A DNA stretch of 41,358 bases from a virus, in IMG/VR virus record IMGVR_UViG_3300025586_000002; one strand, 5' to 3'. The number at the start of each line of letters is the position of its first letter. The stretch's first letter is position 1. The notes under the pieces are model-generated. The model saw only the letters and a list, made by a program, of their open reading frames with translations, did no database searches and was not told the origin of the DNA. A program made the position numbers and the translations under genes. Below, piece by piece: positions 490-36,514 of this stretch.

Positions 490-517
490 ATAATATCAGA
501 ACCGCATATCTTGTCAA
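490..517 (-). promoter_or_regulatory. sigma70-like promoter pointing leftward into the ORF-free junction region
   Basis: Minus strand: TTGACA (517-512), 16-nt spacer, TATTAT (495-490). No ORF lies downstream until the minus-strand terminator at 40762-40785 across the junction. Confidence 0.5.
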
Positions 518-1267: not shown

Positions 1268-2287
1268 ATGAAAGAATATATGCCAGGGCAAACAACTAAA
1301 AAAGAGGTTTTATTGATTACGGGTGGTGCAGGCTTTGTCGGCTCTCATATGGTAGAGGGGGTGTTAAAGAACACTGACTGGGATATTATTATATTAGACA
1401 GACTTGATTTGTCTGGAAACTTACATCGTTTATTAGACATTGACATCTGGGAAAAAGAAAAGAACAGAGTTAGTTTTTTATGGTGGGATTTAAAATCTGC
1501 ATTGAATGTGCCGATTAAAGCAGACTATGTATGGCATTTAGCCGCATCAAGCCATGTAGACCGTTCAATAGAAGACCCTTGGTTATTTGCGATGGACAAT
1601 GTAATTGGAACTGTTAATCTTTTACAAGCCTGCCGAGAGATGAATCCAAAAAGAATTATTTATTTCAGTACGGATGAAGTGTTCGGAACAGCACCAGACG
1701 GGGTAGACTACAAAGAATGGGATAGATATAACTCAGGTAATCCGTACTCTGCATCAAAGGCGGGGGGAGAAGAGTTTGCATTAGCGTTTGCTAACACATA
1801 CAAGTTGCCGATTATAGTGACACACTCGATGAACATCTTCGGCGAAAGACAACATCCAGAGAAGTTTATACCTTTAGTTATTAAGTGTGCGTTGAAAGGA
1901 GAGAAGGTGTTTATTCACGCTTCAGAAGATAAAAAGAGAGCAGGACAAAGACATTACTTACACGCAAGAAATATATGTGCCGCACTTTTATTCTTAACAG
2001 AGAATGGTAAGTGTTTAGACGGTTCAGGAAAACAAGGTAAATATAACATAGTGGGGGAGGAGGAAGTAGACAACCTTACATTAGCAAAGATGATTGCCGA
2101 TATACTTGGTAAGAAGTTAGAATATGAAATGGTGGATTTTCATTCCAGCAGACCAGGTCATGATTTACGATATAGTTTATCTGGAGAGTTATTAGAAAGC
2201 GAAGGATTTTCATATCCAAAGAGTTTTAGAAGTAGCTTAGAGAAGGTAGTGCAATGGTATCTTTATCGTCAAATTTGGCTGGAATAG
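1268..2287 (+). CDS. NAD-dependent NDP-sugar 4,6-dehydratase/epimerase (extended SDR, RmlB-like)
   Basis: Rossmann motif GGAGFVGSH. Also HLAASSHVDRSIEDP, STDEVFG, catalytic YSASK and HPEKFIP, all characteristic of dTDP-glucose 4,6-dehydratase-type enzymes. Confidence 0.75.
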   Translation: MKEYMPGQTTKKEVLLITGGAGFVGSHMVEGVLKNTDWDIIILDRLDLSGNLHRLLDIDIWEKEKNRVSFLWWDLKSALNVPIKADYVWHLAASSHVDRSIEDPWLFAMDNVIGTVNLLQACREMNPKRIIYFSTDEVFGTAPDGVDYKEWDRYNSGNPYSASKAGGEEFALAFANTYKLPIIVTHSMNIFGERQHPEKFIPLVIKCALKGEKVFIHASEDKKRAGQRHYLHARNICAALLFLTENGKCLDGSGKQGKYNIVGEEEVDNLTLAKMIADILGKKLEYEMVDFHSSRPGHDLRYSLSGELLESEGFSYPKSFRSSLEKVVQWYLYRQIWLE

Positions 2288-2290
2288 AAT

Positions 2291-3169
2291 ATGGATTTAG
2301 TATCTTGTGTCCATATAGAGACAACAGAAAGCTTTAATAATGGATTAGAGACCTTTGAAGGTAATTTATACATCACAGATGACTCTTGTGGTAAGTATAA
2401 ATACCCTTTTGAGGTTTTAGATTACAGAGACTTTCCGCTTTTTAAGTATTTACACAAGTCTTCTGCGTCAAAAAACTATGCTCTTTACAAATCTAAAGCA
2501 GATATAGTCTTTATTATTGACTCAGATTGTGTGATTGAACCAGATTTTCAAGATAAACATCTTGATGCACTGGACACAGAAGGTTGTTTGTGGGATAATC
2601 CTTTAGAAAACACAGGATTTTATCCAAGAGGTTTTCCTTATTCAGCAAGAGACAAGAGAGTTGTCGCAAATGTAGGTCTTTGGACAAATGTACTTGACAT
2701 AAATGGTGCGGATAGAAGTAAAAACGAGCCAAACAAACCAGAAATAACTGGAACTCGTGTATCAACTTCTTTTGTTCCATTTTCTGGTATGAATGTTGCT
2801 GTTAGAAGAGAAGCAATACCAGCATTATTCTTTCTACCGAACATAGGAAATTTTAAAAGACACGATGACATATTTGGCGGATACATATTTCAATCAATAG
2901 TAAAGAAAAAAGGAGATTGTATTACTTACGGGGAACCGTTTGTTAAACACGAAACCTTTATTATTTCAGAAGAAGATGCCGAAGACGAATTAGAGATGAA
3001 CGAGTATCAAGATAAGTTCTGTCAAGTAGTAGATACTGCTATTGCAAAGATAAAACCTACCACTTACGCAGATATGTACAAGCAGTTTGTAAGAAAAGTC
3101 AAGTTTAGTGGAAGATTTAAAGGATTTAATAAACCTATAAGAATATGGAGCAACTTATTTCGTGGGTAG
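2291..3169 (+). CDS. GT75 / reversibly-glycosylated-polypeptide (RGP, UDP-arabinopyranose mutase)-like protein
   Basis: IDSDCVI (DxD), RGFPYSARD, NVGLWTNVLDINGAD, FSGMNVAVRRE and RHDDIFGGY parallel the plant RGP blocks DDDCF, RGYPFSLR, SHGLWLNIPDYDA, CGMNLAFDRE and RYDDMWAG (recalled from memory). Confidence 0.5.
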   Translation: MDLVSCVHIETTESFNNGLETFEGNLYITDDSCGKYKYPFEVLDYRDFPLFKYLHKSSASKNYALYKSKADIVFIIDSDCVIEPDFQDKHLDALDTEGCLWDNPLENTGFYPRGFPYSARDKRVVANVGLWTNVLDINGADRSKNEPNKPEITGTRVSTSFVPFSGMNVAVRREAIPALFFLPNIGNFKRHDDIFGGYIFQSIVKKKGDCITYGEPFVKHETFIISEEDAEDELEMNEYQDKFCQVVDTAIAKIKPTTYADMYKQFVRKVKFSGRFKGFNKPIRIWSNLFRG

Positions 3170-3855
3170 TATGTACATATAACCGAACTCCACTAACAGA
3201 ACAGTTTATGGACCACAACCTGGCAAGACTTGGAACAACAAGACCAGAGTTAATATGGATAGACAATAGTTCAACAGATGGCGTGGAGAGACTATGGGAT
3301 AAGTATAACCCAGACATAATCATTAAAAGACCAAACGATTGCCTTAGCAAGTCAAAGAACGCCGCTTACGCTGTTTGTAGAGGAGACTGGATTATAGATT
3401 TAGAAAATGATTTCTTAATGCCAGATAATTGGTTGCCAGAAATGTTAGAATATGGCAAAGCGATTGAAGGCACAGGTATAATGGCAACAATGGTTGAGAG
3501 GTGGGATGCAATTTTAACATTAGAATACACAACACCAAAGTCAATTATAAATGGAAAGGAAGTTATAGTGTGTAGAGCAATAGGTCCAAGAATCTTCAGT
3601 AGAGAAGTATTCAAGAAGTGTGGATTTTTAATAGAAACATATGGACTTTATGGAGATGAAGATATTGAAATAAGTGATAGAGCCGCAAATGCTGGACTTA
3701 TAAATTATATTATTCCTTCAATAACTGGAATACACGCTGGTAATGGGGAGTGGGATATGGGAGAATATAGAGCAGCAAAAGACGAAGGACTACACCACCC
3801 AAAAGTTAAACTTCCAGAAGGACAACTTTATTTTAATCCATTTGTATGCAGGTAA
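3145..3855 (+). CDS. family-2 (GT-A fold) glycosyltransferase
   Basis: N-terminal ISWVVCTYNR, then IDNSSTDG and a DLEND DxD-like motif. Overlaps the upstream gene by 25 nt. Confidence 0.7.
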   Translation: MEQLISWVVCTYNRTPLTEQFMDHNLARLGTTRPELIWIDNSSTDGVERLWDKYNPDIIIKRPNDCLSKSKNAAYAVCRGDWIIDLENDFLMPDNWLPEMLEYGKAIEGTGIMATMVERWDAILTLEYTTPKSIINGKEVIVCRAIGPRIFSREVFKKCGFLIETYGLYGDEDIEISDRAANAGLINYIIPSITGIHAGNGEWDMGEYRAAKDEGLHHPKVKLPEGQLYFNPFVCR

Positions 3856-4274
3856 TTATTCCAGGAACATTTGATTTATTACACGAAGGACATAAAGAGT
3901 TAATCAGGTTTGCTCTGTTAATTAGTAAAGATATTATAATCACAATTAACGGCGATAAGTTTTCTAAACTTTTAGGAAAGAAAACAAGTCAGACCGAACA
4001 AGAAAGACTTAAAGGATTAAAAGATTTTATTAACTGCCCTGTTTATATTGTAAACTCTGAATCTGAATCTTTAAAAATAGCGATAGACAACGCACCTTGT
4101 TTCAGACTTACAGGAGATGACTGGGATATTAGCAAAACAAGTAAGAGGTGTGGCGTTGATAGAAGTTTTTGGAAAAGAAATAACATCTATCTTATTTATA
4201 AAGACAGAGTTCCCAACATAAGCAGCACAAAATTAAGAAATGCCCAGACCAAAAGTAATACTGTATCCATTTAA
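3846..4274 (+). CDS. cytidylyltransferase-family nucleotidyltransferase (TagD / glycerol-3-phosphate cytidylyltransferase-like)
   Basis: GTFDLLHEGH (HxGH signature) near the N-terminus and ISSTKLR near the C-terminus. Confidence 0.7.
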   Translation: MQVIIPGTFDLLHEGHKELIRFALLISKDIIITINGDKFSKLLGKKTSQTEQERLKGLKDFINCPVYIVNSESESLKIAIDNAPCFRLTGDDWDISKTSKRCGVDRSFWKRNNIYLIYKDRVPNISSTKLRNAQTKSNTVSI

Positions 4275-4806
4275 AGCAGGACCATTAGATGGAAAAAACT
4301 GGAAAGAAACACTTGATACTGGGATAAAAGAACTTAAAGACTTCAACTGGCAACTTGGTTTTGGAACATTGCTTGGAATGGTCAGAGATAAGACAGTAAT
4401 TCCGCACGATTTAGACTTAGACATAGATGTAATGATGGAAGATGAATACAAGCCGAACACAGATGCACTTCATCAAAGTTATTTAACAAAAGGATTTCGT
4501 CTTATTAAGATGCAAGAGTGGGGTGGTTTAATAATGTCGTTAGCCTATATGCACGAAAAGACGAATGTGATATTTGACATCTGTTTCTTTTATGGTATAT
4601 GGGGTGATGATTTTCTACACCTTGGAAGTGACGGAATTGTTATCAGACCGAGATGGACCTTAAAAACTATTAAACTACTTGGATACAACATACCTGAAAG
4701 ATATGATGATTATCTTACAGGAAGATATGATGATTGGAGAACTCCAGTTTCTGGGAAAAAAGATTGGTTTGATTACGCTAATAAATACTTTATAAAATAT
4801 GATTGA
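4240..4806 (+). CDS. LicD-family phosphotransferase (phosphocholine / polyol-phosphate transferase fold)
   Basis: GFGTLLGMVRDKTVIPHDLDLDIDVMM matches the LicD core GTLLGAVRhxGFIPWDDDIDV. Confidence 0.6.
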   Translation: MPRPKVILYPFKAGPLDGKNWKETLDTGIKELKDFNWQLGFGTLLGMVRDKTVIPHDLDLDIDVMMEDEYKPNTDALHQSYLTKGFRLIKMQEWGGLIMSLAYMHEKTNVIFDICFFYGIWGDDFLHLGSDGIVIRPRWTLKTIKLLGYNIPERYDDYLTGRYDDWRTPVSGKKDWFDYANKYFIKYD

Positions 4807-6067
4807 AAAACCAAAAGTAATTAACGATTTAAAACTCCAAGAAAAGATTGGTTGGACTCCACACAGTGGTCAGAAAAAGATTATAGACTGCCACGCAAGA
4901 GAGAAGATTATATGTGCAGGAAGAAGATTTGGGAAAAGTGATACTTGTGCTTATGAGATAGTAAAAGACGCACTTTTAGGAGATAGAAGAATATGGATAG
5001 CCGCACCTTCTTATGAACTTTCTAAAATAGTGTTTGACAGGGTAGTTATATTTCTTTCAAAAGTAATTAGCCCAAGTCATTTCAGAATACAGATGAAACC
5101 ATTTCCAACACTTACGCTGACTAACGGAAGTATTATTGAAGGAAAGTCGTGTGAGGCAAGGTCTGGTATGCTTGGTAGGTCTACTAACTTAGTAGTAATA
5201 GACGAAGCAGCACTTGTAGATGAGAACATCTGGCAACAATATATCAAGCCAACAACACACGAACAAAAAGGTAGAGTTGTTTATATAGGAACACCAAGAG
5301 GATTAAATTGGTTTTATGATAAGTTCCTGGAACTTCAAATAAAACACACAGCGTTTCAATTCAAGACTTCTGACAACCCATTGTTTGACTTAGTAGAATA
5401 TAATAAAGCAAGAGAGAGTCTGCCAGAAAAGGTTTTCGCACAAGAATACGAAGCAGAGTTTTTAACAGAAGCAGGATTAGTTTTTAGAGGAATAGACTTA
5501 ATTGTTGACGATACTTTGGCAGAACCAGTATTGGGAACAGCATATATATTAGGAGTGGACATAGCAAGGCATACAGACTACACAGCTTTGACTGTAATGG
5601 ACAGAACAACCAAGAAGGTAGTTTATCTCGACAGGTTCAAAGAACTTGATTATCCATACCAAAAACAACGCATTTTAACATTATCACAAAAATATAATAA
5701 CGCAAAAATAATAATAGATTCAACGGGCATGGGAGATAGCGTGGCTTCAGACCTAATGCGACAAGCGTTTGTAGAAGAATACCCACTATACAGCCATAAA
5801 GCAAAACAACAACTAATAGATAGACTTATAATCTTTATCGAACAAAGGGTTATAAGGATACCAAATAACGAAATACTTATAAATGAGTTAAAAAAATACG
5901 AGGTAAAAGTTTTAGAAGCGTCTGGAAAGTATAATTATTCAGCACCAAGAAGTGGGCACGATGATATGGTTATATCATTAGCACTAGCAACTTGGGGATT
6001 ACAGCCGAATAAACTATCAGACGTAGAAGAAACAGAAACCATAATAAAGCACAATGACTACGAATAA
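4799..6067 (+). CDS. terL: terminase large subunit
   Basis: Walker A-like AGRRFGKS and Walker B VVIDEAA. C-terminal nuclease acidic motifs GVDIARHTDYTAL and GHDDMVISLALA. The portal gene follows immediately. Confidence 0.9.
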   Translation: MIEKPKVINDLKLQEKIGWTPHSGQKKIIDCHAREKIICAGRRFGKSDTCAYEIVKDALLGDRRIWIAAPSYELSKIVFDRVVIFLSKVISPSHFRIQMKPFPTLTLTNGSIIEGKSCEARSGMLGRSTNLVVIDEAALVDENIWQQYIKPTTHEQKGRVVYIGTPRGLNWFYDKFLELQIKHTAFQFKTSDNPLFDLVEYNKARESLPEKVFAQEYEAEFLTEAGLVFRGIDLIVDDTLAEPVLGTAYILGVDIARHTDYTALTVMDRTTKKVVYLDRFKELDYPYQKQRILTLSQKYNNAKIIIDSTGMGDSVASDLMRQAFVEEYPLYSHKAKQQLIDRLIIFIEQRVIRIPNNEILINELKKYEVKVLEASGKYNYSAPRSGHDDMVISLALATWGLQPNKLSDVEETETIIKHNDYE

Positions 6068-9548: not shown

Positions 9549-10223
9549 ATGACATTAGCAGAACTTCAAGCCGATACACTTTTTTTGGCAAACACTGTGT
9601 CCGCACAATATGCAGACATTGCTATTAAAAGAAATCTTAATATACATTATGATATTGCTGTTTTAGACATATGGGATTCTGCGGCTGATTGGCAGTTTGA
9701 CGAAGGAATAGATGAACTACCGATAGGAACTGCAGCATTAGTAGCAGAACAAGATAACTATGCTATACCGACAGACGCAAGAGAGGTTGAAAGAGTAGAA
9801 GTAAAAGATTCAAACGGAAAGTATATCAAATTAGTTTCAATAGATTCTGCCAACATAAAAGATAGTCTTGAGCAGTTTAGAGGGAATAGTGGAACACCAG
9901 CTTATTACGATATAATAGGCAGGTCTTTAATTCTTTACCCAACACCAAGTTATAGTTCAGACGAAGGACTTTTAGTAGCAGTAAGTAAATCAGTTACACA
10001 ACTATCAGAAAGCACAGACGAGCCAAGAATTGAAAGAGAGTTTCACAGAATAATTAGTCTTGGTGCGGCATTAGACTGGTGTATAGCAAAAGGTAATCCA
10101 ACAAAGCGTGCCGAAATAGAGAGAGAACTTCTAAAACTTCAAATAAAATTAAGAAAGTTTTATGCAAACAGAAACAAAGACTACGACACCAGGATTAAAC
10201 CTGCAATGCAAAACTACGAATAA
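9549..10223 (+). CDS. putative head-to-tail adaptor/connector protein
   Basis: Position between the capsid and tail genes, and size comparable to podoviral adaptor proteins. Inference only. Confidence 0.35.
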   Translation: MTLAELQADTLFLANTVSAQYADIAIKRNLNIHYDIAVLDIWDSAADWQFDEGIDELPIGTAALVAEQDNYAIPTDAREVERVEVKDSNGKYIKLVSIDSANIKDSLEQFRGNSGTPAYYDIIGRSLILYPTPSYSSDEGLLVAVSKSVTQLSESTDEPRIEREFHRIISLGAALDWCIAKGNPTKRAEIERELLKLQIKLRKFYANRNKDYDTRIKPAMQNYE

Positions 10224-11307
10224 CATAAGTTGCACATATATTTTAAGCAACTTTACAGAGTTTCAGGTTGGTTGTTTTCAGGTAAGGATAAATAATCCCT
10301 TCATTCATTTGAATAGATTAGGACACAAGATGGAATATGTTGTTATGGGGCAACACGAATATACAGAGATAGATTCTGACATTGTAATGTATTCCAGAGC
10401 ATATACACAAGACCCATTTCGTTCTTTATGGAAACATAAATCAGACGGAAGAAAGATAGTTTATGAAATGGACGATGATATTTGGAACATACCAGAACTG
10501 AACCCAGCACACGATGGCTATGGCAAGAAGATGAAAAGTGATATTAGCGGATTGTGTAAAGAAGCAGACTTAGTTATTGTAAGCACAGAAGCATTGAAAG
10601 AAGTTGTTATAGAAGAAACAGGACAAAAGAATATAGTAGTTATTCCAAACGCTTTAGACTTAGACAAGTTTAAACTACGACCGAACAAAGAAGGATTAAG
10701 AATAGGCTGGACAGGAGGTGCAAACCATTATGAAGATTTAGACATTGTTTTACAAGCAATACACGACCTTCAAGAAGAATACGATTTTGAGTTCATTATA
10801 CAAGGATTAACCGCTGGACCGTGGGATGCTGACGCTTATTCAACAAACCTTATTTTAGAAAGAGGAGAACCGAAAGAAGCAATGCTTGCAATGAACACAC
10901 AGAAGTTAAACATTTATAAGAAGTTAAGAAAGTTAAAAAACTTCAAACATATTCCCTTTTACCCGCCAGAAATGTATGCTTCTGTATTAAAAGAAATAGA
11001 CTTAGACATTGGACTAATTCCAATAGTAGGACACAAGTTTGATAAATCAAAATCAATTATTAAGTATTTAGAATATACCGCAACAGGAACAGCAGTAATA
11101 GCATCAGAAGAAGACCCTTATAGAGATGTTATCTATACTGTTAAAAATAAATATAAGTATTGGTATAACGGAATTAAAGAGTTAATAGAAAATAAGGAGT
11201 TAAGAAATCAACTCGCTAAACAACAACACAAACAACTCTTTCCAAAATATGATATGAAAGAAGTAGTTAAACAATACGAAAAAGCATTATGTGGACTTAT
11301 AAAGTAA
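10162..11307 (+). CDS. GT-B fold (GT1/GT4-like) glycosyltransferase
   Basis: RIGWTGGANHYEDL and KSKSIIKYLEYTATGTAVIASE (E-x7-E-type block). The segment VRINNPFIHLNRLGHKMEYVV looks like the N-terminal YRxxxPxxxLxxxGHEV element. That favours the ATG at 10162 (62-nt overlap with the upstream gene) over the ATG at 10330. Confidence 0.6.
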   Translation: MQTETKTTTPGLNLQCKTTNNISCTYILSNFTEFQVGCFQVRINNPFIHLNRLGHKMEYVVMGQHEYTEIDSDIVMYSRAYTQDPFRSLWKHKSDGRKIVYEMDDDIWNIPELNPAHDGYGKKMKSDISGLCKEADLVIVSTEALKEVVIEETGQKNIVVIPNALDLDKFKLRPNKEGLRIGWTGGANHYEDLDIVLQAIHDLQEEYDFEFIIQGLTAGPWDADAYSTNLILERGEPKEAMLAMNTQKLNIYKKLRKLKNFKHIPFYPPEMYASVLKEIDLDIGLIPIVGHKFDKSKSIIKYLEYTATGTAVIASEEDPYRDVIYTVKNKYKYWYNGIKELIENKELRNQLAKQQHKQLFPKYDMKEVVKQYEKALCGLIK

Positions 11308-21514: not shown

Positions 21515-24500
21515 ATGAATATCTTTCAACAAATAGCCAACACAAAAATACCAAGGAATAATATATTCCGCCAGATTGCCAAGACACCTGTATTCAGTCC
21601 TTTGACTGGCAAGAGAATAGAAGCGACAATATCAGCTGCAAAACAAGAGAAAACTCTATTTAAAACAGTAGTTGATTTTCTTGACCGTAATATATTTCAA
21701 CCACTACCATTCACACTTAGTCCAAGAGAGAAACCAGAAGTAATGAAAGACCCAACTACTGGAGAGATTAAAGTTTTTGAAGGGTTAGCACCAGTTGATA
21801 AACTCGTGACTACAAGAGGTTTTCTAAAATCTCCAGAAGATATTAACTTCTATACAAAAAATATAGCACCGATAGCGATGATTGCACAACTCCCAGCAAG
21901 AATTGGAGAAACCTTTTTTAGATTTGCAGTACAAACTTATACTAATGTAGCCTCTGTTATAATGGGCGAAGCAATAGAAACAGAACTTCCCTTTGATGCA
22001 AGAAGAATTGCTGCAAAAGAACAAACAATTAAATCAACTGGAGAAAAATTCTTTAAACGTGTTTTTGAATTACAAGAACAAAAAAAACCAGAGACAGCAT
22101 GGGATATAATTAAAATCTCTGCACAAGCTACATTTGATGAGGTTCTGCCAGATTTATTAGATGCTTTAATTGTTGGTAGTCTAACAGACACAGCTGCAAG
22201 ACAAGTTCTTAAGTTCACTAAATATGACCCACTACTAGAGAGAAGTTTATCTGAATTAGGAATACCAAAAGACCTTATATTTAAAATGACAACAAAAGAA
22301 TGGAATAAACAAGTAGTAGATATTCTTAGAAGCGATATATCAATGCAAGATAAATATCAAGCAATTAGAGCTGCTTATTATGTTACTAAGAGATTTACAA
22401 CAGCTGGAGGACCATACCAACTTACTCCAATATATCAAAGATTAGAAGATGTGGCAAAAAGACTAATAGGAATAGACGCTCAAGTTCGGGCAATATCTCC
22501 TATTACTGGATTACCTGGTTATCAACAAGGTGGTATTGGATTAACACTTGAACCACTTAAAGGAGCTAATGTTATTAAAATGCAAGAGCTTCTACAAAAA
22601 GGAGTGTCTATAGCCGATATTGCAAGTAGATTAAAGGTTTCTACCGCAGTTATAAATACAACCATTGTTTCTGTTGGAAAAGAATTGCTTGTAAAGGAAG
22701 CATTAAAGTATAAGAGTGCAGAGGAGTTTGTGAAGGCAATAGATGATGTCAAATACAAAAGTGTTGCTAAGCAAGAAAAGGACGCTGGTTATAAACCTTA
22801 TACACTATCAAAGCAAGAAAAGGGTTTATTGGATACTATAAATCAAACTAGACCTATTGAGGGTCAAAGAACAACAGAAGATGTTAAAACCTACCTAAAA
22901 GACATCTGGAACCAAGCACAAGTAACACCAAGCGTTGTTAGAGAAGCAGCACAAATAACACCAACTACTGTTCAACCAAAAACTCTAATTAGAGAAACTA
23001 CTGGAATTATTAAACCAGAGATGACTGCGTTTAAACAGCGTATGACAGACTATATTAGAGGTATCAGAGAAGGAAGAATAGATATAAGAACAGATACTGG
23101 AGTTGTAATGAAAGAGTTTGAAGAACTACTTAAAACAAGTGGTATCAGCACGCCAGACATTGCTAAATTTATACCAAAAATAAGAGAGATTGTGACATCT
23201 AAAAACCCAGTAGAGAAGTTTGCCGCAGAATATGAAAACATAGAAAGAAGAATAAATAGCCTTATTGAGTTCACTGAAAAAAGAGCCATCTTTAAGGAAA
23301 TTATAAAGGAGATAAAAACTACTAAACCAAAAAAGATTGGTGCCAGAAGGGTTGAGAAGTTTGACTACGAAACAGTAAAAGAGTTAAAGGAATTAAAAGG
23401 AATTAGTACTCTTACAAAAGAAGAAGCAAGGTCTAGTATGCTTTCAATGCCAACAGAGAACTTAACAAACTTTGAAAAAATGAAACTAAGGATGTTAAGT
23501 ATCAAAGGTAATGGAGCAAAAAGTAGCACTGAACTTTATAGGTCTGTGTTAGACGATTTAAGAACACTAAAGAGTGTTGGGTTAGAAGCAAAGTCAGAGC
23601 AGGATTTTCTTAGAGTAGTAGAAGAAAGAGTAGCCATAGACGAAGCCGCACAATCTATAAGTAGAATTAAAGCAGATAAAAAGGACTTAAGAACTCGGTT
23701 CACTAAAGCATATCTTCGTGGGATTGGTAACATAGGTTCAATTCTTAATGCAATAGGCGGACAGGAGTTTGCAACTAAATACGACCCACAACTCGCAGAG
23801 TTAGCTATGGAAACAGCAACTTTCTTTAAAGGAAAAGAACTGATAAGTAAATCTCTTGAGATATTAGAATTCAAGAATAAGAAAGAACTTGGAAATCAGT
23901 TTATAGATTGGGCTGGTGAAGAATATAAAATCACAGACATAGACAATGTTGTAAAAGAGATAACGAAGCACGACATAATGCACATGTATCTTGGTCTAAA
24001 GAATCCAAAAACTAAAGAGATGTTTTACTATGCTTATGGTAAAGACCAAATAGAAACACTTATATCAAATCTTTCTCAAAAAGAAATGGGTTTCGCTGAC
24101 AACTTACAAGAAGTAGTTCAGTCTTATTACCCAGTAATAAATAAGTTTTTTATAGAACAACACGGCAGAGATTTAGGAGTTGTTGAGAATTATTTCCCAC
24201 GCAAAACAGAATATGAAAAATATGATGATACTTTTCGTGTTCAAAGTAATCTTCCTTCTGCTGTAAAAGAGCGAATAAAAACAACAAAAGCATTTCCAGA
24301 AACAGAATCTCCTTGGCTTCTTACAATAAAACACATAGAAGAAGCAGAACACATTTCACATCTATCAAACAAGTATCTGGAACTATCAAAACTTTTCAAA
24401 GACAGAAAAATAAAAAATCTAATAAAAGAAAAATGGGGACAAGACCTCTATGAAGAAATAATAGGTCATGTAGATAATTTAGCATTAAACCAACACATAG

Positions 24501-25630
24501 AAAAACTAGACATTGTTAGTCGTGTTTGGAATACTGGACTTAATAATTGGGTTAGAGCTAAGATAGTTTCACTATCAGTTTTTGCAAGACAGTTAGGTTC
24601 TGTAATTAACTATACAGAAAGAATGCCAACAGTAAAATGGACTAGTGGATTTGCGGAAGGTATCTCTACTCCAAAGAAAACATTTGATTATATGTGGAAG
24701 AACTTTCCAGAGTTAGAAGCTCGTTTCAATCGTGGTTATGATGAGGCAGTTAGAGATGCAGTTAGAGATTCTACAAAATTAGGACTAGGTATGAATAGTC
24801 TTACTAAAGGAACTTCTGCATTGGTTAGAACTGGTGATATGACTGCTATTATATATGGTGGTTATCCATTGTTTAAATACGAACTAGAACTACACGGCGA
24901 TTTAGAAAAAGCAAGAAGGGCTTTCTTAAATGCAACATTAGACTCGCAACAGTCTGGATTAAAATCTTCAATGTCTACTCTTCAGAACAGTGCGAACCCA
25001 ATGGCTAAGACATTTATGAGGTTTAAGAACACACTTAATCAATATACTCGTAAGTTAGGTGATGTTCTTATTCAATACCATAACAAAGAAGCAACAGCAG
25101 GAGATGTCGCAAAAACATTCTTTATTTACCAACTATATGCAGGATTTATATATATTGCTCTTGGTGAAGGAGTAAATAAACTGTTTAGCGAAGCTGGAGA
25201 AATGATTAAAGGAGAAGAAGATGATTTTGATTATAAAGAATTTGGAAGTGATGTTGTTGAACAAATACTTTTACAACCATATATGTCGTTACCACTAATA
25301 GATGAACTCTCAACCTATGCTTATAGAAAGGTTATAGGTAAAAAGACATACGGATATACTTTTGAAACACCAATGATTGGGGATATATGGAGAGCTATAA
25401 ACAAACTAGCAAAAGTAGAACCAACCTTTATGGACTTCTTAGAAGCAATGAGTGGGTTGCAGGAAATTGGAACTGGTTTAGGAACGAATGTTATGTTGAG
25501 ATACTATAATTTATTATTTGAGAAGGAAGAAGAAAATCTATTAATACCAAAAGATGACTCTATGGATATGGAATTTGACTTTGGTTTTGAAGATATAGAC
25601 TTTGGGTTTGAAAATATAGACTTTGAATAA
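21515..25630 (+). CDS. very large internal virion / DNA-ejection protein candidate
   Basis: 1371 aa and the last big gene of the structural block. The C-terminus carries tandem acidic-aromatic repeats, DFGFEDIDFGFENIDFE. Confidence 0.45.
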   Translation: MNIFQQIANTKIPRNNIFRQIAKTPVFSPLTGKRIEATISAAKQEKTLFKTVVDFLDRNIFQPLPFTLSPREKPEVMKDPTTGEIKVFEGLAPVDKLVTTRGFLKSPEDINFYTKNIAPIAMIAQLPARIGETFFRFAVQTYTNVASVIMGEAIETELPFDARRIAAKEQTIKSTGEKFFKRVFELQEQKKPETAWDIIKISAQATFDEVLPDLLDALIVGSLTDTAARQVLKFTKYDPLLERSLSELGIPKDLIFKMTTKEWNKQVVDILRSDISMQDKYQAIRAAYYVTKRFTTAGGPYQLTPIYQRLEDVAKRLIGIDAQVRAISPITGLPGYQQGGIGLTLEPLKGANVIKMQELLQKGVSIADIASRLKVSTAVINTTIVSVGKELLVKEALKYKSAEEFVKAIDDVKYKSVAKQEKDAGYKPYTLSKQEKGLLDTINQTRPIEGQRTTEDVKTYLKDIWNQAQVTPSVVREAAQITPTTVQPKTLIRETTGIIKPEMTAFKQRMTDYIRGIREGRIDIRTDTGVVMKEFEELLKTSGISTPDIAKFIPKIREIVTSKNPVEKFAAEYENIERRINSLIEFTEKRAIFKEIIKEIKTTKPKKIGARRVEKFDYETVKELKELKGISTLTKEEARSSMLSMPTENLTNFEKMKLRMLSIKGNGAKSSTELYRSVLDDLRTLKSVGLEAKSEQDFLRVVEERVAIDEAAQSISRIKADKKDLRTRFTKAYLRGIGNIGSILNAIGGQEFATKYDPQLAELAMETATFFKGKELISKSLEILEFKNKKELGNQFIDWAGEEYKITDIDNVVKEITKHDIMHMYLGLKNPKTKEMFYYAYGKDQIETLISNLSQKEMGFADNLQEVVQSYYPVINKFFIEQHGRDLGVVENYFPRKTEYEKYDDTFRVQSNLPSAVKERIKTTKAFPETESPWLLTIKHIEEAEHISHLSNKYLELSKLFKDRKIKNLIKEKWGQDLYEEIIGHVDNLALNQHIEKLDIVSRVWNTGLNNWVRAKIVSLSVFARQLGSVINYTERMPTVKWTSGFAEGISTPKKTFDYMWKNFPELEARFNRGYDEAVRDAVRDSTKLGLGMNSLTKGTSALVRTGDMTAIIYGGYPLFKYELELHGDLEKARRAFLNATLDSQQSGLKSSMSTLQNSANPMAKTFMRFKNTLNQYTRKLGDVLIQYHNKEATAGDVAKTFFIYQLYAGFIYIALGEGVNKLFSEAGEMIKGEEDDFDYKEFGSDVVEQILLQPYMSLPLIDELSTYAYRKVIGKKTYGYTFETPMIGDIWRAINKLAKVEPTFMDFLEAMSGLQEIGTGLGTNVMLRYYNLLFEKEEENLLIPKDDSMDMEFDFGFEDIDFGFENIDFE

Positions 25631-25660
25631 AACTTGCAATCGCTAACTAAAAATGATATA

Positions 25661-25906
25661 ATGGTAAATAAACTACAAACTAAATACGAAACTAAATACG
25701 AAGTTATGGCAGAACAATTAAAGAACTTGTGTAAGACGCAAGAGGAGTTGAAAGATAACTTAGAAAAATATATTACAGAAGATAGAGCGTGGAAAGATGC
25801 CTTTATAGAAAAACTTGACAAGAAGTATGCAGGAAAATATATTGAGGTTATATCTATCGGTGCGTTGATTGCTATAATCACACAAATTATTAGTAGTGCT
25901 TTATAA
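25661..25906 (+). CDS. small coiled-coil protein with a C-terminal transmembrane anchor
   Basis: The ATG at 25661 is in frame with the TTG at 25634 used by the ORF track. C-terminal hydrophobic segment VISIGALIAIITQIISSAL. Confidence 0.5.
   Translation: MVNKLQTKYETKYEVMAEQLKNLCKTQEELKDNLEKYITEDRAWKDAFIEKLDKKYAGKYIEVISIGALIAIITQIISSAL
25815..25843 (+). promoter_or_regulatory. sigma70-like promoter embedded in coding sequence, facing the lysis cassette
   Basis: TTGACA (25815-25820), 17-nt spacer, TATATT (25838-25843). The -35 is encoded by Leu-Asp-Lys codons (cttgacaag). Confidence 0.55.
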
Positions 25907-25966
25907 AAAAACTCTCCGCCTTAGTTGGATGTCGGAGAGTGAAAAAACCTAGGAACTTTTATCTTC
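25905..25966 (-). ncRNA. candidate cis-antisense small RNA of about 60 nt
   Basis: It lies downstream of a consensus minus-strand promoter (25973-26000). It ends in an 8-bp hairpin (25911-25918 with 25933-25940) that is followed by a U7 run only on the minus strand; the plus strand has A-runs there. Confidence 0.5.
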
Positions 25967-25972
25967 GTACTA

Positions 25973-26000
25973 ATTATAGCATACCTGCACACTGTGTCAA
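25973..26000 (-). promoter_or_regulatory. consensus sigma70-like promoter on the minus strand inside the plus-strand block
   Basis: Minus strand: TTGACA (26000-25995), 16-nt spacer, TATAAT (25978-25973). A second TTGACA lies 9 nt upstream (26009-26004). Confidence 0.6.
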
Positions 26001-26056
26001 GCTTGTCAAGTTTTATTTAGGGTTTTTAGTTATTAAATTAAAATAGTTGTCAAATT

Positions 26057-27217
26057 ATGATAGAACAAATTATCGCCAAATTATATAAAAAATCGCTACT
26101 TTTAAAGGGAAATGTGGTCGGAATGGGTACAGGACTAAAAATAAAAGACGGTTTAATAACGGACAAAACTTGTATTTTAGTCGGTGTTAGTAAAAAACTC
26201 ACAGCGGACGAACTTTCTAAAAAAGACCTTATTCCTAAGAAGATAGCAGGTGTTGAAACAGACATCATTGAAGTAGGAAATCTTGAGTATATGTGGAGAG
26301 GTAAGCACAGACCTTTGAAGATGGGTGCGTCTTGTTGTTGGAAAGGATTGACTGCCTGTTCGGCAGGATTACCACTGTATTCTAAAGACGGAACGCCTTA
26401 TCTTTTAATGAACAGACATTGCTCGGTTCCAGATGATAACAGAGGTATCGCACAAGTAGGAGATGCAGTAATAAATCCTGGACCAGCAGACGGCGGAAAA
26501 GTAACCGACAGAATTGGAGAGATAACACAGATAGTATTTCCAGTATCTTCTAATAGGAAAGATAACATAGATGTAGCGTTAGTTAAACTAGACGCTCCGA
26601 TGAAACACGAAGATGTTGTAGGTACAAAATATATACCTAAAACAAGGCACCTTGTAGAAGCGTTAATGCCTGGTGGTGATTTACTTAAAAGCGTTTTCGG
26701 TGGAGGTAGAACTCTTGGAACAGTTAAAACTTCTGCACCTATAATATCGGTTAATTTCTTAGCAGGTGTCTGGGGTGAAGAGAACGGACAGAGAGTGATT
26801 AGATATTTCCCTAATTCTATTTTAACTCTTAATGAAAGTAAAGAAGGTGGTGCTTGTGTGTTAGGAGGTGATTCAAGTTCTATGAGGCTTTTAGACGGTA
26901 TGCCTTTAGTCCAAACCTTTGCTGGTAGTGATGAAGTAGCAGTGTTTAACCAAGTACAGCGTTCATTAGATTGGATTAAGAACGAGTATGGTTTAGAGTT
27001 ATTCTTAGAACCACAGGTTGCCGAGGAAGGATGGATAGCATTAGGTTCGTGGATGAGTATAGATAGAACAACTGTTATTATTAAGACCCCTGCAAGGTTT
27101 AGAGATGGTGCTGGACTAGAGACCAACACATTAAAAATCCTAAAAGCAGGAACAAAACTTAAAATGGTCGGAGAGTTTATTATTAAAGATAATTACCTTT
27201 GGGTAAAAGTTCAATGA
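26057..27217 (+). CDS. trypsin-like serine peptidase with a C-terminal SH3b-like domain; candidate endolysin (endopeptidase)
   Basis: Catalytic-triad-like motifs MNRHC (His), NIDVALVKL (Asp) and GGDSSS (Ser). The C-terminal segment RFRDGAGLETNTLKILKAGTKLKMVGEFIIKDNYLWVKV is SH3b-like. Small membrane-protein genes follow. Confidence 0.5.
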   Translation: MIEQIIAKLYKKSLLLKGNVVGMGTGLKIKDGLITDKTCILVGVSKKLTADELSKKDLIPKKIAGVETDIIEVGNLEYMWRGKHRPLKMGASCCWKGLTACSAGLPLYSKDGTPYLLMNRHCSVPDDNRGIAQVGDAVINPGPADGGKVTDRIGEITQIVFPVSSNRKDNIDVALVKLDAPMKHEDVVGTKYIPKTRHLVEALMPGGDLLKSVFGGGRTLGTVKTSAPIISVNFLAGVWGEENGQRVIRYFPNSILTLNESKEGGACVLGGDSSSMRLLDGMPLVQTFAGSDEVAVFNQVQRSLDWIKNEYGLELFLEPQVAEEGWIALGSWMSIDRTTVIIKTPARFRDGAGLETNTLKILKAGTKLKMVGEFIIKDNYLWVKVQ

Positions 27218-27402
27218 TTAAGAAAATAGTTAGAGCATATAGAAATGCACCTGCTAATATAAAGTTTGCAGGACAAGAACTTAAAAGACAAGGATTTACT
27301 ATCAGAACAGGTCGTGCTTATATGGATGATTTGAATAAAAAAGCTGGAGATGTAGGTGTATCCGACTTAGTAGCTGCATTAAAAAAGAAATTTAACAAAT
27401 AA
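27214..27402 (+). CDS. hypothetical basic protein in the lysis cassette
   Basis: ATGA start/stop overlap with the peptidase gene. Confidence 0.5.
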   Translation: MIKKIVRAYRNAPANIKFAGQELKRQGFTIRTGRAYMDDLNKKAGDVGVSDLVAALKKKFNK

Positions 27403-27406
27403 CAAT

Positions 27407-27580
27407 ATGCCAAATAAAGATATGTATAATTGGAAAATAACACTTAAAAAGTTTCTACTTCTGTTTATAGAAGTACTAATACTGGGAACTGTGTCCTACA
27501 TAACAGAAAATCAACTATGGTTATTTCTGCTTCCTATCTTAGAAGCAATAAGGAACTGGTTGAAACACAGAACTAGATAG
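27407..27580 (+). CDS. holin-like small membrane protein (57 aa, not in the ORF track)
   Basis: Hand translation: MPNKDMYNWKITLKKFLLLFIEVLILGTVSYITENQLWLFLLPILEAIRNWLKHRTR. It has two hydrophobic helices and a basic C-terminus. Confidence 0.45.
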   Translation: MPNKDMYNWKITLKKFLLLFIEVLILGTVSYITENQLWLFLLPILEAIRNWLKHRTR

Positions 27581-27597
27581 AAAGTCGCTTAGAACGC

Positions 27598-27627
27598 AAA
27601 AAACCCCCTTAAACTGGGGGTCTTTTG
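27598..27627. terminator. bidirectional intrinsic terminator at the convergence of the late and early blocks
   Basis: aaaaaa-CCCCC-ttaaact-GGGGG-tctttt. The GC stem is flanked by an A-run and a T-run, so a U-tract follows on either strand. Confidence 0.8.
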
Positions 27628-27651
27628 ATTGGGTACAACCCTACTACAACC

Positions 27652-28044
27652 CTATTTCTTTAGTTCTTCGTATAGATAACCCATTGCGTTAAACAATATA
27701 CCATTAAGAGCATCTTCTTTTGTTTCTCTACCTTTATAACCTCTGTGAATTAACCAGAGGTCTAAGAAATGTCTCCACATAGATTTAATATAAGCGTCTC
27801 GATTTATACCTTTTTGCCAGTTATCAGATGCACGATAGTTGCCGTCAGATTGTATTCTGTTTTTGTGCATGTACTCGCAGTAGGACTTAATAACGATTGG
27901 GCTTAAAAACCCTTCTGGGTCGTGTTTTCCTTCTTCTGAGTCCCTGATGGCTCCGCTTGGGAATTTTCTTATTTTTTTCATATTATTTAGTTCCTCTTTT
28001 TTAGTTGTACAATGATTTAACCCCGTACCTGTTTGAAAATCCAT
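27652..28044 (-). CDS. dATP/dGTP diphosphohydrolase N-terminal-domain-like (DUF5664-type) protein
   Basis: FPSGAIRDSEEGKHDPEGFLSP, SDNWQKGI and SMWRHF match the family pattern FSTGAxRDxxxGK..SP...NWxKG...RH (recalled from memory). An alternative start exists at 27981. Confidence 0.5.
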   Translation of the reverse strand: MDFQTGTGLNHCTTKKEELNNMKKIRKFPSGAIRDSEEGKHDPEGFLSPIVIKSYCEYMHKNRIQSDGNYRASDNWQKGINRDAYIKSMWRHFLDLWLIHRGYKGRETKEDALNGILFNAMGYLYEELKK

Positions 28045-28051
28045 ATTGTTA

Positions 28052-28246
28052 TTATTTAAATGTATAATACTTTTTTACATCTGGATTTTGTGTTGCGGAA
28101 GTTAATGGCATTTTTTTTAATTTTGGGCTTTCTGGTTCTAAGTTATTTTCTTCATAAGCTATTTCAATCAACCCTATCACCTTCATAAATATCCATACTA
28201 CTAATGATAAAGGACTAATTAAAATTCTGGCTATTACTTTTTTCAT
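28052..28246 (-). CDS. small membrane protein
   Basis: AATAATATG start context. Hydrophobic segment ILISPLSLVVWIFMKVIGLI. Confidence 0.55.
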   Translation of the reverse strand: MKKVIARILISPLSLVVWIFMKVIGLIEIAYEENNLEPESPKLKKMPLTSATQNPDVKKYYTFK

Positions 28247-28482
28247 ATTATTTAATTATACTTAAAACAAGTAATGGTTAGTGTAAAGTTTTAACTATAC
28301 TTTATCCTTGAAATCGTATGATTTGAAGGAATGCTAATCCTTGAAATAGACTGGAAGTGAGGTTAAACCTTACAAGCAGTTCACTGACCTGTACAAAAGT
28401 GTATCACATAATGGAACGAGGTGGACGGGGAAAGAGTTGAACTTTCGTTGTTCTAATGAACCTTACCCTACCCGCCCGACTT
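28247..28482 (-). other. ORF-free, locally GC-enriched spacer with hairpins and direct repeats
   Basis: Minus strand: GGGCGGG pairs with CCCGTCC (7 bp, one G:U). Direct repeat atccttgaaat at 28303 and 28337. Shares gacgggg..agagttgaac and aaacct(t)acaagc with segment 84-460. Confidence 0.5.
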
Positions 28483-28698
28483 CTATTTCTTACCTTCTTT
28501 ATCTTCCTTTAAATGCTCTATCTCTTCTCTGTCTAACTCTTCTAACAGACTAAACTGTGCTCGTAGTTCTGTTATTCTATTCATTAAAGCTCTTAAAAGA
28601 GTTTGGGCGTCGGATATAACCTTCTCTTGTACTACTGCTTGTTCTTGTACTCCCTTGAAGTCTTTTTCTATTGCTTCTTTTTTTTCTTTTAGTTTCAT
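28483..28698 (-). CDS. hypothetical coiled-coil protein
   Basis: AATAATATG start context. Charged heptad-like sequence. Confidence 0.6.
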   Translation of the reverse strand: MKLKEKKEAIEKDFKGVQEQAVVQEKVISDAQTLLRALMNRITELRAQFSLLEELDREEIEHLKEDKEGKK

Positions 28699-36399: not shown

Positions 36400-36479
36400 A
36401 ACAGAAAACGGCACCCTCCATGACAGTAGATGCCGTTATCTGTGGTCATGGACGATTGTTTAATGTTGTTTTAAAGAAC
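36398..36479 (-). ncRNA. candidate small RNA or attenuator of about 80 nt with pseudoknot potential
   Basis: It lies downstream of the promoter at 36486-36514. An 8-bp stem, ACGGCAUC/GGGUGCCGU (36436-36408), is followed by UUUUCUGUUUU. The loop sequence GUCAUGGA is complementary to the upstream UCCAUGAC (36452-36445). Confidence 0.45.
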
Positions 36480-36485
36480 AAAACC

Positions 36486-36514
36486 AATATATCAGAAACA
36501 TCAAATCTTGTCAA
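36486..36514 (-). promoter_or_regulatory. sigma70-like early promoter
   Basis: Minus strand: TTGACA (36514-36509, inside the codons for TLDKI*), 17-nt spacer, TATATT (36491-36486). Confidence 0.65.

What the first reader, a model, noticed from the sequence alone, without database searches (positions are those of the whole stretch)
25815..26056. Convergent promoters around a strand-specific terminator: candidate antisense small RNA facing the lysis-cassette leader
A plus-strand TTGACA-N17-TATATT promoter is embedded in coding sequence at 25815-25843. It would start a transcript with a leader of about 200 nt running into the peptidase/holin-like lysis genes. Facing it, a perfect minus-strand TTGACA-N16-TATAAT promoter (26000-25973) would produce an RNA of about 60 nt. 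That RNA ends at the 25911-25940 hairpin, which has a U7 tail only on the minus strand; the plus strand reads through A-runs. The small RNA would be fully complementary to the plus-strand leader at 25905-25966. The arrangement resembles lambda OOP or P22 sar-type antisense control, and here it could set lysis timing. Three TTGTCAA(G) copies lie between the hairpin and the lysis gene start.
Basis: partly seen in the sequence, partly recalled or inferred. Interest (0 to 1): 0.65.

Follow-up and report, generated by a model that had tools for sequence, protein, structure and literature searches.

The report
Antisense small RNA in lysis module
A roughly 62-base RNA gene with its own near-perfect promoter and one-way stop signal sits backwards between two late genes of an uncultured phage, is kept in related phages, and probably restrains the neighbouring cell-wall-degrading genes; this is a known style of phage control in a family not described before.

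Summary
The minus-strand promoter (26000..25973) matches 12/12 with an extended -10 TG and is the only perfect match in the window (0.08 expected). It resembles the phage's early promoters. The hairpin at 25911-25940 has a U7 tail on the minus strand only.

Eleven distinct versions of the same unit occur in related metagenomic phages (protease 42-74% identical). Each has a 10-12/12 promoter. All 78 stem pairs are canonical, with compensatory changes. Each has 6-7 T after the stem on the minus strand and 0-2 on the plus strand. They share the core AAGUAUAAAG...CUUUU. So a stand-alone antisense sRNA gene of about 62 nt (up to about 95 nt in relatives) is well supported, and it has no Rfam match.

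A different plus promoter-like site (25634-25662) is conserved in position in relatives that carry the unit. The TTGTCAA boxes are TTGACA -35 hexamers read from the other strand.

The RNA does not overlap any ribosome-binding region, so it resembles lambda OOP rather than P22 sar. The downstream gene encodes an alpha-lytic-protease/NAL1-fold protein with an SH3b domain, followed by holin-like genes. In some relatives the unit instead precedes an amidase gene. Control of lysis-gene expression is plausible but untested.

The parts
25973..26000 (-). sRNA promoter: TTGACA (26000-25995), N16, TGc, TATAAT (25978-25973)
   Evidence: the only 12/12 match in the window, 0.08 expected. It follows the same cTTGACAa...TGnTATA(A/C)T pattern as the eight minus-strand early promoters. 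It is conserved at 10-12/12 in all 11 distinct relatives.
25904..25966 (-). Predicted sRNA, about 62-63 nt: 5'-GAAGAUAAAAGUUCCUAGGUUUUUUCACUCUCCGACAUCCAACUAAGGCGGAGAGUUUUUUU, with the TSS inferred 7 nt after the -10
   Evidence: Sequence, fold. The TSS and 3' end are inferred, not measured. The 5' motif AAGAUAAAAG corresponds to the conserved AAGUAUAAAG of relatives.
25911..25940 (-). Intrinsic terminator hairpin: 8-bp stem, 14-nt loop containing the conserved ...CAUCCAAC..., with a U7 tail at 25911-25905
   Evidence: in 10 distinct stems all 78 pairs are canonical, and 6 of 8 positions have 2-5 pair types. After the stem there are 6-7 T of 8 on the minus strand and 0-2 of 8 on the plus strand, in all 11 copies.
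25942..25960 (-). A-run/U-run element (AAAAG-N8-UUUUUU) just 5' of the terminator, corresponding to the AAAG-loop-CUUU mini-hairpin of relatives
   Evidence: The closing pair is G-C in most copies, A-U in L024 and C-G in L046.
26004..26009 (-). Second TTGACA box, 9 nt upstream of the -35 (tandem box)
   Evidence: The tandem arrangement is kept in L023, L029, L025 and L030. Its role is unknown. The +635 promoter has a similar tandem box.
26048..26053 (-). Third TTGACA box, 3 nt from the protease ATG. In L025, L029 and L030 it has a 10/12 partner -10, making a possible upstream promoter P2. In the window that -10 is degenerate.
25634..25662 (+). Candidate plus-strand promoter TTGCAA-N17-TGaTATAAT facing the sRNA promoter. 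Its -10 ends 1 nt into the first ATG of the small gene.
   Evidence: A site with the extended -10 TG sits at the same position in window, L023, L030 and L025. It is absent in L031, L033 and L034, which lack the unit at this junction. The chance of at least 10/12 with TG in 66 nt is about 0.001.
25815..25843 (+).
   Evidence: observed number equals expected number; not conserved.
25661..25906 (+). Small tail-anchored membrane protein gene: 81 aa, with a conserved internal Met at 25706 that would give 66 aa. Its stop codon abuts the sRNA's U-tail.
26057..27217 (+). Serine-protease-fold protein with a C-terminal SH3b domain; candidate cell-wall endopeptidase and the first gene downstream of the unit
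   Evidence: invariant H121, D172, S274; pLDDT 89; NAL1 and alpha-lytic protease folds.
27407..27580 (+). 57-aa protein with two hydrophobic segments (holin-like), the last gene of the plus arm
   Evidence: sequence. No family hit. The holin assignment is inferred.
27603..27621 (.). Bidirectional terminator closing both convergent arms, in contrast to the one-sided hairpin at 25911-25940

Best explanation
The interval holds a stand-alone gene for a small cis-antisense RNA. A near-perfect host sigma-70-type promoter of the phage's early class (26000..25973) starts a minus-strand transcript at about 25966. The transcript ends at the one-sided intrinsic terminator (25940..25905). The resulting RNA of about 62 nt lies entirely within the spacer between the small membrane-protein gene and the protease/SH3b gene of the plus-strand late operon.

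Inferred function: it holds down or gates expression of the lysis-type genes downstream on the plus strand, in two ways that are not mutually exclusive. (a) It pairs with the intercistronic part of the plus mRNA. Pairing could begin through the complementary 14-nt hairpin loops. The resulting perfect duplex would be cut by a double-strand RNase, uncoupling and destabilising the downstream lysis message, as with lambda OOP. (b) RNA polymerase bound at, or firing from, this very strong convergent promoter interferes with plus-strand polymerases coming from the late promoter and from the conserved internal promoter at 25634. Heavy plus-strand transcription late in infection would in turn silence the sRNA promoter and titrate the RNA, releasing lysis-gene expression.

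Shown: the motifs, their non-random occurrence, and their conservation with covariation and strand asymmetry. Inferred: that transcription occurs, the RNA ends, the timing, and the effect on lysis genes.
For: The promoter is unique at 12/12 plus TG and follows the pattern of the eight enriched early promoters (8 observed on the minus strand of the early arm against 0.7 expected for both strands).

Eleven distinct versions of the unit occur in relatives whose flanking protease is only 42-74% identical. All have a 10-12/12 promoter, and 9 of 11 have TGn. All 78 stem pairs are canonical with multiple compensatory changes. The T-run is on the minus strand only.

The unit is always antisense to, and inside, the cluster of cell-wall-hydrolase and small membrane-protein genes. 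It lies before the protease gene in 9 versions. It lies between the protease and an Amidase_2 gene in 2 versions, in contigs where all genes are co-directional. That excludes a role as a terminator for a convergent arm.

No conserved minus-strand ORF follows it. A plus-strand promoter-like site faces it in the four unit-bearing relatives with upstream sequence and not in three relatives that lack the unit at this junction. The downstream protein has an alpha-lytic-protease/NAL1 fold plus SH3b.

Precedent: early-expressed cis-antisense RNAs occur within late genes of PAK_P3 and PAK_P4, and one matching the endolysin gene was proposed to delay lysis (PMC5563952). OOP acts through RNase III (PMC12197685).
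Against: There are no expression data of any kind, and the host is unknown.

The RNA does not overlap any ribosome-binding region or more than the stop codon of a coding region. An effect on translation is therefore indirect at best.

The primary sequence of the single-stranded 5' motif and of the loops is conserved. A purely cis-antisense function does not require this and it hints at a protein partner or a trans target.

The unit's position relative to the genes is not fixed. Several relatives lack it altogether (L015, L017, L019, L031-L033), so it is dispensable for this gene cluster.

The phage uses almost no Shine-Dalgarno sequences. The host may therefore belong to a lineage whose promoter rules I cannot check, although the strong enrichment of TTGACA/TATAAT sites in the early arm argues that they are used.
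Confidence: 0.5

Rival explanations
1. It is a genuine sRNA gene, but the RNA acts in trans on host or other phage transcripts, or binds a host RNA chaperone. Its position in the lysis module is then incidental, as for a small mobile promoter-RNA-terminator cassette.
For: Primary sequence is conserved where a cis-antisense RNA needs none. This applies to the 5' motif AAGUAUAAAG, the AAAG...CUUU element and two loop types (CAUCCAAC and CGCAUUCAU), across relatives whose spacers are otherwise unalignable. The cassette sits at two different gene junctions. The layout of U-rich stretch, terminator hairpin and U6-7 tail is that of chaperone-dependent sRNAs (established knowledge; inference here).
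Against: Among the phage's own translation-initiation regions no pairing exceeds shuffled controls. Host targets cannot be examined. In all 11 versions the cassette is antisense and inside the same gene cluster, which an incidental location does not predict.
Confidence: 0.2
2. The DNA element works only as a promoter roadblock or transcriptional-interference device. A very tight-binding convergent promoter throttles read-through into the downstream genes, and the short RNA is a by-product that the terminator disposes of.
For: The promoters are perfect or near-perfect consensus with an extended -10. The -35, or an extra TTGACA box, lies 3-30 nt from the ATG of the downstream plus-strand gene in every version. 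The terminator confines antisense transcription to 60-95 nt. Convergent-promoter interference is well documented (e.g. PMC5001618, listed).
Against: It does not explain the conserved RNA-level features: the covarying optional 5' hairpin in five versions, the mini-hairpin, and the conserved large loops of 12-23 nt, which are unusual for a plain terminator.
Confidence: 0.12
3. It is a type I toxin-antitoxin-like pair, or an RNA 'antiholin'. The small tail-anchored membrane protein (25661/25706-25906) is the toxic or holin-like product, expressed from the 25634 promoter. The convergent sRNA overlaps the 3' end of its mRNA and triggers its decay.
For: The layout is a small hydrophobic protein gene with its own conserved promoter-like site and a convergent sRNA ending at its stop codon. 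This matches 3'-overlapping type I systems known from prophages (general knowledge; family survey PMC2887945, listed).
Against: In L034, L020 and L043-45 the unit is separated from the small gene by the whole protease gene. The overlap with the small gene is only its stop codon. The plus transcript has no terminator there and continues into the protease gene. The protein, at 66-81 aa with a long coiled-coil part, is larger than typical type I toxins.
Confidence: 0.1
4. It is a chance juxtaposition of a promoter-like and a terminator-like sequence in AT-rich DNA, with no function.
For: AT-rich genomes give many weak promoter-like matches. The folding-energy z-score of the region is only about -1.
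Against: A 12/12 match is expected 0.08 times per window. The same composite unit recurs at the same type of junction in 11 divergent sequences with compensatory stem changes. A generic scan of about 143 kb (both strands) found only four other promoter-hairpin-T-run combinations.
Confidence: 0.03

Closest known systems
Lambda OOP RNA (77-nt cis-antisense RNA from promoter pO)
   Same: It is a short RNA from its own sigma-70 promoter, convergent to a longer operon transcript, and it ends at an intrinsic terminator. It is positioned at the 3' end of the upstream gene and the following spacer, not at a ribosome-binding site. For OOP the expected action is duplex formation and RNase III cleavage (PMC12197685).
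   Different: There is no sequence or Rfam relationship. OOP overlaps a substantial part of the 3' end of the cII coding region (my recollection: roughly 50 nt), whereas here only the stop codon is overlapped. The target context is a late lysis module, not the lysis-lysogeny switch.
P22 sar RNA (68/69 nt)
   Same: It is similar in size. It sits in an intercistronic spacer, faces a strong convergent promoter, and interplay between the two promoters is expected.
   Different: sar covers the ant ribosome-binding site. Here the RNA ends 91 nt (window) or about 45-50 nt (short-gap relatives) upstream of the next start codon, so this defining feature is not met.
PAK_P4as15 and the early antisense RNAs of Pseudomonas phages PAK_P3/PAK_P4
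   Same: These are phage cis-antisense transcripts expressed early and opposite late genes. One matches the endolysin gene and was proposed to delay lysis (PMC5563952).
   Different: PAK_P4as15 is about 550 nt and overlaps the coding sequence. Here the unit is a compact 62-95-nt RNA confined to a spacer, with an explicit promoter and terminator, and it is conserved across a phage group.
Type I toxin-antitoxin pairs with 3'-overlapping antisense RNA (e.g. txpA/RatA and bsrG/SR4 of Bacillus prophage regions; from general knowledge)
   Same: A small membrane-protein gene faces a convergent small RNA ending next to its stop codon, and both have their own promoter-like sites.
   Different: The overlap is minimal. 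The plus transcript runs on into further genes. The pairing of the unit with the small gene is not conserved (L034, L043).
Convergent-promoter transcriptional interference (coliphage 186 pR/pL type)
   Same: Face-to-face promoters of unequal strength sit about 300 bp apart (25634 on the plus strand against 26000 on the minus strand).
   Different: The antisense transcript here is cut short by a dedicated terminator after about 60 nt, so the collision zone is small. No lysogeny switch is involved as far as can be seen.

Membership tests
Sigma-70-type promoter with extended -10 | -35 TTGACA and -10 TATAAT hexamers 16-18 bp apart, with TGn before the -10 | tested here: met
   26000..25973 matches 12/12 with spacer 16 and TGc. 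All 11 versions score 10-12/12, and 9 have TGn.
Sigma-70-type promoter with extended -10 | Transcription actually initiates there in the host | not testable with these tools
   There are no expression data and the host is unknown. Indirect support: sites of this type are enriched about tenfold on the coding strand of the early arm.
Intrinsic (Rho-independent) terminator | A GC-rich stem directly followed by a U-tract on the transcribed strand | tested here: met
   On the minus strand there is an 8-bp stem followed by U7. On the plus strand no T follows. This holds in all 11 versions.
Intrinsic (Rho-independent) terminator | A short loop (usually 3-8 nt) | tested here: not met
   The loop is 14 nt in the window and 12-23 nt in 10 of 11 versions, which is why the consensus scan missed it. 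The loops carry conserved sequence, suggesting an added function.
Lambda OOP-type cis-antisense RNA | A short RNA from its own promoter, convergent to the target operon, ending at a terminator near the 3' end of the upstream gene | tested here: met
   Anatomy. This is predicted from sequence only.
Lambda OOP-type cis-antisense RNA | Overlap with the coding 3' end of the target gene, and RNase III-dependent decay | tested here: not met
   The overlap is limited to the stop codon at 25904-25906. RNase III dependence is not testable here.
Lambda OOP-type cis-antisense RNA | Sequence or structure homology to OOP | tested here: not met
   No Rfam family reaches threshold, and the permissive search gave only noise with E values above 2.
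P22 sar-type antisense RNA | Complementarity to the ribosome-binding region of the downstream gene | tested here: not met
   The predicted 5' end at 25966 is 91 nt upstream of the ATG at 26057. In short-gap relatives the distance is about 45-50 nt.
Type I toxin-antitoxin system | A small hydrophobic toxin gene with its own promoter | tested here: inconclusive
   The protein is 66-81 aa and tail-anchored, and a conserved promoter-like site lies at 25634. Toxicity is unknown.
Type I toxin-antitoxin system | The antitoxin RNA is consistently paired with, and overlaps, the toxin mRNA | tested here: not met
   In L034, L020 and L043-45 the unit lies beyond the protease gene. The overlap with the small gene is the stop codon only.
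Chaperone (Hfq-type)-dependent sRNA | A terminator hairpin with a U-tail of at least 6 and an adjacent U-rich or A-rich single strand | tested here: met
   The sequence layout is present in all versions. Binding, and even the presence of such a chaperone in the unknown host, is not testable.

The most novel reading that the evidence does not exclude
The unit is the core of an RNA-based lysis gate. A conserved pair of face-to-face host-type promoters (25634 on the plus strand, 26000 on the minus strand) brackets a tail-anchored membrane-protein gene. Together with a compact, structured antisense RNA with conserved loops, they would form a threshold or timer switch that decides when the cell-wall-hydrolase and holin genes are expressed. 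Lysis timing would then be set at the RNA and transcription-interference level, upstream of the holin clock. The cassette would be a portable module that can be placed in front of different hydrolase genes (protease or amidase).
Probability: 0.15. Interest if true: 0.7.

Novelty: new member of a known kind. Interest (0 to 1): 0.45.

Why it matters
Lysis timing in tailed phages is usually explained by holin and antiholin proteins. RNA-level control of lysis genes has been proposed from transcriptomes, but it has rarely been tied to a compact element that is supported by conservation. Here a defined promoter-RNA-terminator cassette of 62-95 nt is conserved with covariation across a group of uncultured phages. 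It is always inside the hydrolase/holin cluster. This gives a precise, mutable target for testing that idea, including silent -10 mutations, loop swaps and transplanting the cassette. It is also a new candidate RNA family absent from Rfam. In addition, it shows that consensus scans limited to loops of 8 nt or less miss such terminators.

Tried and rejected
- BLAST of 24500-28500 against annotated phages found no usable relative.
- Protein-guided scans of viral contigs found nothing. The genome-contig scan gave two short contigs: L035 added one instance of the unit, but neither contig identified a host.
- A motif scan of viral contigs for AAAGYATAAAG...CTTTTNGAC gave six hits, none with a promoter or terminator, so all were rejected as chance.
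- Rfam at gathering and at permissive thresholds gave nothing meaningful. No tRNA or tmRNA was found.
- MAFFT/RNAalifold on the RNAs misregistered two stems and gave a weak consensus. I therefore counted pairs on hand-registered stems and did not build a covariance model.
- A trans-target search against all phage translation-initiation regions gave best energies within the shuffled-control range. The loop against the start at 853 is borderline, at the 5th percentile.
- The idea that the unit is a leader or attenuator of a minus-strand gene was rejected. The 125-aa antisense ORF at 25881..25504 is not kept in relatives.
- The idea that the hairpin stops read-through from the convergent early arm was rejected. 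The arms already end at a bidirectional terminator at 27603-27621, and the unit is also present in contigs where all genes run the same way.
- A replication origin or primer, or a Q-type antitermination leader, was considered and set aside. I noted no iterons or other AT-rich repeats beyond the three TTGACA boxes, and there are no downstream minus-strand genes.
- A plus-strand promoter inside the spacer for the protease gene was looked for by eye. No convincing sigma-70-type site was seen.

Full report
CONTEXT. The window is essentially a complete genome of about 41 kb from an uncultured tailed phage. Contigs of 41.35-41.68 kb that encode the identical protease occur in several metagenome assemblies. 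The plus arm runs from about 0.85 to 27.6 kb. It carries sugar-modification genes, terminase, portal/adaptor, major head protein, tail fibre and a 1371-aa protein. After these come a small tail-anchored membrane protein, a 386-aa protease-type protein, a 62/67-aa protein and a 57-aa protein with two hydrophobic segments. The minus arm (27.65 to about 40.8 kb) carries Erf-type and exonuclease genes. The two arms meet at a classical bidirectional terminator at 27603-27621. There is no DNA-level relative among annotated phages.

THE OBSERVATION. All the motifs are at the coordinates given. The minus-strand promoter TTGACA-N16-TGc-TATAAT (26000..25973) is the only perfect match in the window, against 0.08 expected. 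It shares the cTTGACAa...TGnTATA(A/C)T pattern of eight minus-strand promoters in the early arm. There, hits of at least 11/12 number 8 on the minus strand against about 0.7 expected for both strands. So host-type sigma-70 promoters are evidently a real feature of this phage, and this one belongs to the early class.

The hairpin pairs 25911-25918 with 25933-25940 and has a 14-nt loop. It is followed by U7 on the minus strand and by GAAAAAAC on the plus strand. Its thermodynamic z-score alone is unremarkable. The consensus terminator scan misses it because of the long loop.

The late arm has one hit of at least 11/12 per strand against 1.35 expected for both strands. Relatives have nothing homologous. 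The 'TTGTCAA(G)' copies are two exact copies plus GTGTCAAG. They are TTGACA hexamers of the minus strand, and the first is the -35 of the sRNA promoter.

COMPARATIVE EVIDENCE. Homologues of the protease (40-74% identity) led to related contigs. In eleven distinct sequence versions the same composite unit is present on the strand opposite to the genes. These versions are window, L023, L029, L025, L030, L024, L013, L035, L034 (identical to L020), L043/44/45 and L046/47.

Each version has the following features:
- A promoter TTGAC(A/T)-N16/17-TATA(A/C)T scoring 10-12/12. Nine have TGn and two have TG adjacent to the -10.
- A stretch of 27-52 nt between the -10 and the stem.
- A GC-rich stem.
- A run of 6-7 T in the 8 nt after the stem on the minus strand, against 0-2 T on the plus strand.

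The stem sequences differ, yet all 78 registered pairs are canonical. Six of the eight positions show two to five pair types. Beyond the terminator the RNAs share several features. There is a 5' motif (A)AAGUAUAAAG, which sits at the predicted 5' end in the short forms (window, L013, L035). There is an AAAG-loop-CUUU mini-hairpin. There are two loop sequence types (CAUCCAAC and CGCAUUCAU). Five versions also have an extra covarying 5' hairpin.

A generic scan for 'promoter, then hairpin, then T-run' over about 143 kb of held sequence, both strands, found only four other combinations. All twelve near-identical copies of the window phage are invariant over 25631-26060. No Rfam family matches.

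POSITION. In nine versions the unit fills the 89-176-nt spacer between the small membrane-protein gene and the protease gene. L035 and L046 are cut upstream, so for them only the position before the protease gene is seen. In two versions (L034/L020 and L043-45) it fills the spacer between the protease gene and an Amidase_2 gene. In those contigs every gene is on the same strand and VanY and SLT hydrolase genes lie nearby. In several further relatives there is no spacer and no unit (L015, L017, L019, L031-L033).

The unit is therefore a dispensable, self-contained cassette. It is always antisense and always inside the hydrolase/small-membrane-protein cluster. It is not a terminator for convergent early transcription. 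It is not a leader of a minus-strand gene either, because no open frame is kept after it.

THE FACING PROMOTER. A plus-strand site TTGCAA-N17-TGaTATAAT at 25634-25662 lies in the 30-nt spacer after the 1371-aa gene. A site with an extended -10 TG occurs at the same position in all four unit-bearing relatives for which that sequence is available, with the -10 ending one base into the first ATG of the small gene. It does not occur in three relatives that lack the unit at this junction (L031, L033, L034). The chance of a site of at least 10/12 with TG in a 66-nt window is about 0.001.

A transcript from this promoter would start after the first ATG. It would then use the conserved internal Met (25706...MAEQ...), giving a 66-aa form of the membrane protein. 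This co-occurrence rests on few sequences that are phylogenetically related.

THE NEIGHBOURING GENES. The 386-aa protein family has invariant His, Asp and Ser residues. Thirteen of 20 members have a NAL1_N domain and 10 of 20 an SH3_3 domain. A confident model (pLDDT 89) matches NAL1 and alpha-lytic-protease-type serine proteases. Alpha-lytic protease is itself a bacteriolytic enzyme (general knowledge). With the SH3b domain and the flanking small membrane proteins, a role as a cell-wall endopeptidase is plausible. No other hydrolase domain was found among the window proteins scanned. 'Lysis cassette' is therefore reasonable but inferred.

MECHANISM. The predicted RNA runs from 25966 to 25904. 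It is complementary only to intercistronic plus-strand RNA, touching the stop codon upstream and ending 91 nt before the protease ATG. Direct occlusion of a ribosome-binding region, as with sar, is therefore excluded.

Two routes remain, and they are not exclusive. The first is duplex formation, for which the complementary 14-nt loops offer a kissing start, followed by double-strand-specific cleavage that uncouples and destabilises the downstream message, as with OOP. The second is interference between a very strong convergent promoter and plus-strand polymerases. In every version the -35 or an extra TTGACA box lies 3-30 nt from the next start codon.

Because the promoter is of the early class, the RNA should be present from the start of infection. 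Late in infection it should be out-competed and its promoter occluded when plus-strand transcription is heavy. That would gate the lysis genes.

The conserved primary sequence in the single-stranded parts is not needed for this model. It keeps a trans-acting or protein-binding role open. I found no trans target among the phage's own start regions above shuffled controls.

A type I toxin-antitoxin-like reading (small membrane protein plus convergent RNA) fits the window. It does not fit the versions in which the unit lies beyond the protease gene.

COMPARISON AND VERDICT. The closest known systems are lambda OOP, P22 sar, the early antisense RNAs of PAK_P3 and PAK_P4 (including one opposite the endolysin gene, PMC5563952; review PMC12197685) and 3'-overlapping type I antitoxins. 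The unit works most like OOP but is not homologous to it, and it differs in being confined to a spacer.

I rate the existence of a functional sRNA gene at about 0.8. I rate the specific cis-regulatory role on the lysis genes at about 0.5. It is a new, comparatively well-supported member of a known kind of phage regulator. Interest is moderate at 0.45, limited by the absence of any expression data and by the unknown host.

Noticed in passing
window 490-663: A divergent pair of strong promoter-like sites: minus 517..490 (TTGACA-N16-TGaTATTAT) and plus 635-663 (TTGACA-N17-TATACT). They probably mark the start of the two arms on the circular map. The plus one has a second TTGACA box 10 nt upstream (625-630), the same tandem-box layout as the sRNA promoter. 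This may indicate common regulation by a factor that binds TTGACAA.
   Followed up: partly
window 36514..36400 (minus strand): A second 'promoter then hairpin' unit in the early arm: TTGACA-N17-TGaTATATT, followed 48 nt later by AACGGCATCT...GGGTGCCGTT and a weaker T-run (TTCTGTTTT). It could be another small RNA, a leader or attenuator, or a very small ORF.
   Followed up: no
whole window; exceptions at 31742 and 32405 (minus-strand starts): Almost no gene has a Shine-Dalgarno sequence. Starts are preceded by A/T-rich runs such as aataaaaATG. Only two early genes (exonuclease, and an HAD/PNK-like gene) have AGGAGG. This points to a host lineage with low SD usage, yet the early promoters are classical TTGACA/TATAAT. 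The host remains unidentified.
   Followed up: partly
window 26057-27217 and relatives (A1): The candidate lysin is a serine-protease-fold protein related in fold to plant NAL1 and to alpha-lytic protease, fused to an SH3b domain. That would be an unusual catalytic type for a phage endolysin. In relatives it coexists with Amidase_2, VanY and SLT genes.
   Followed up: partly
window 25679-25703: A tandem direct repeat ACTAAATACGA/ACTAAATACGA in the 5' part of the small gene (coding TKYE-TKYE). It lies between the candidate plus promoter and the conserved internal Met.
   Followed up: no
window 1268-4806: A block of surface-polysaccharide or teichoic-acid-type genes (nucleotide-sugar epimerase, glycosyltransferases, cytidylyltransferase, LicD-like) sits between the plus-arm promoter and the terminase gene. 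Another glycosyltransferase lies at 10162-11307, among the structural genes.
   Followed up: no
L018 about 4880-4940 (upstream of its protease gene): A more distant relative has a different upstream gene. It has a hairpin (GAGGGAGA...TCTCCCTC) in the spacer but no recognisable sRNA promoter, so this may be an unrelated terminator.
   Followed up: no
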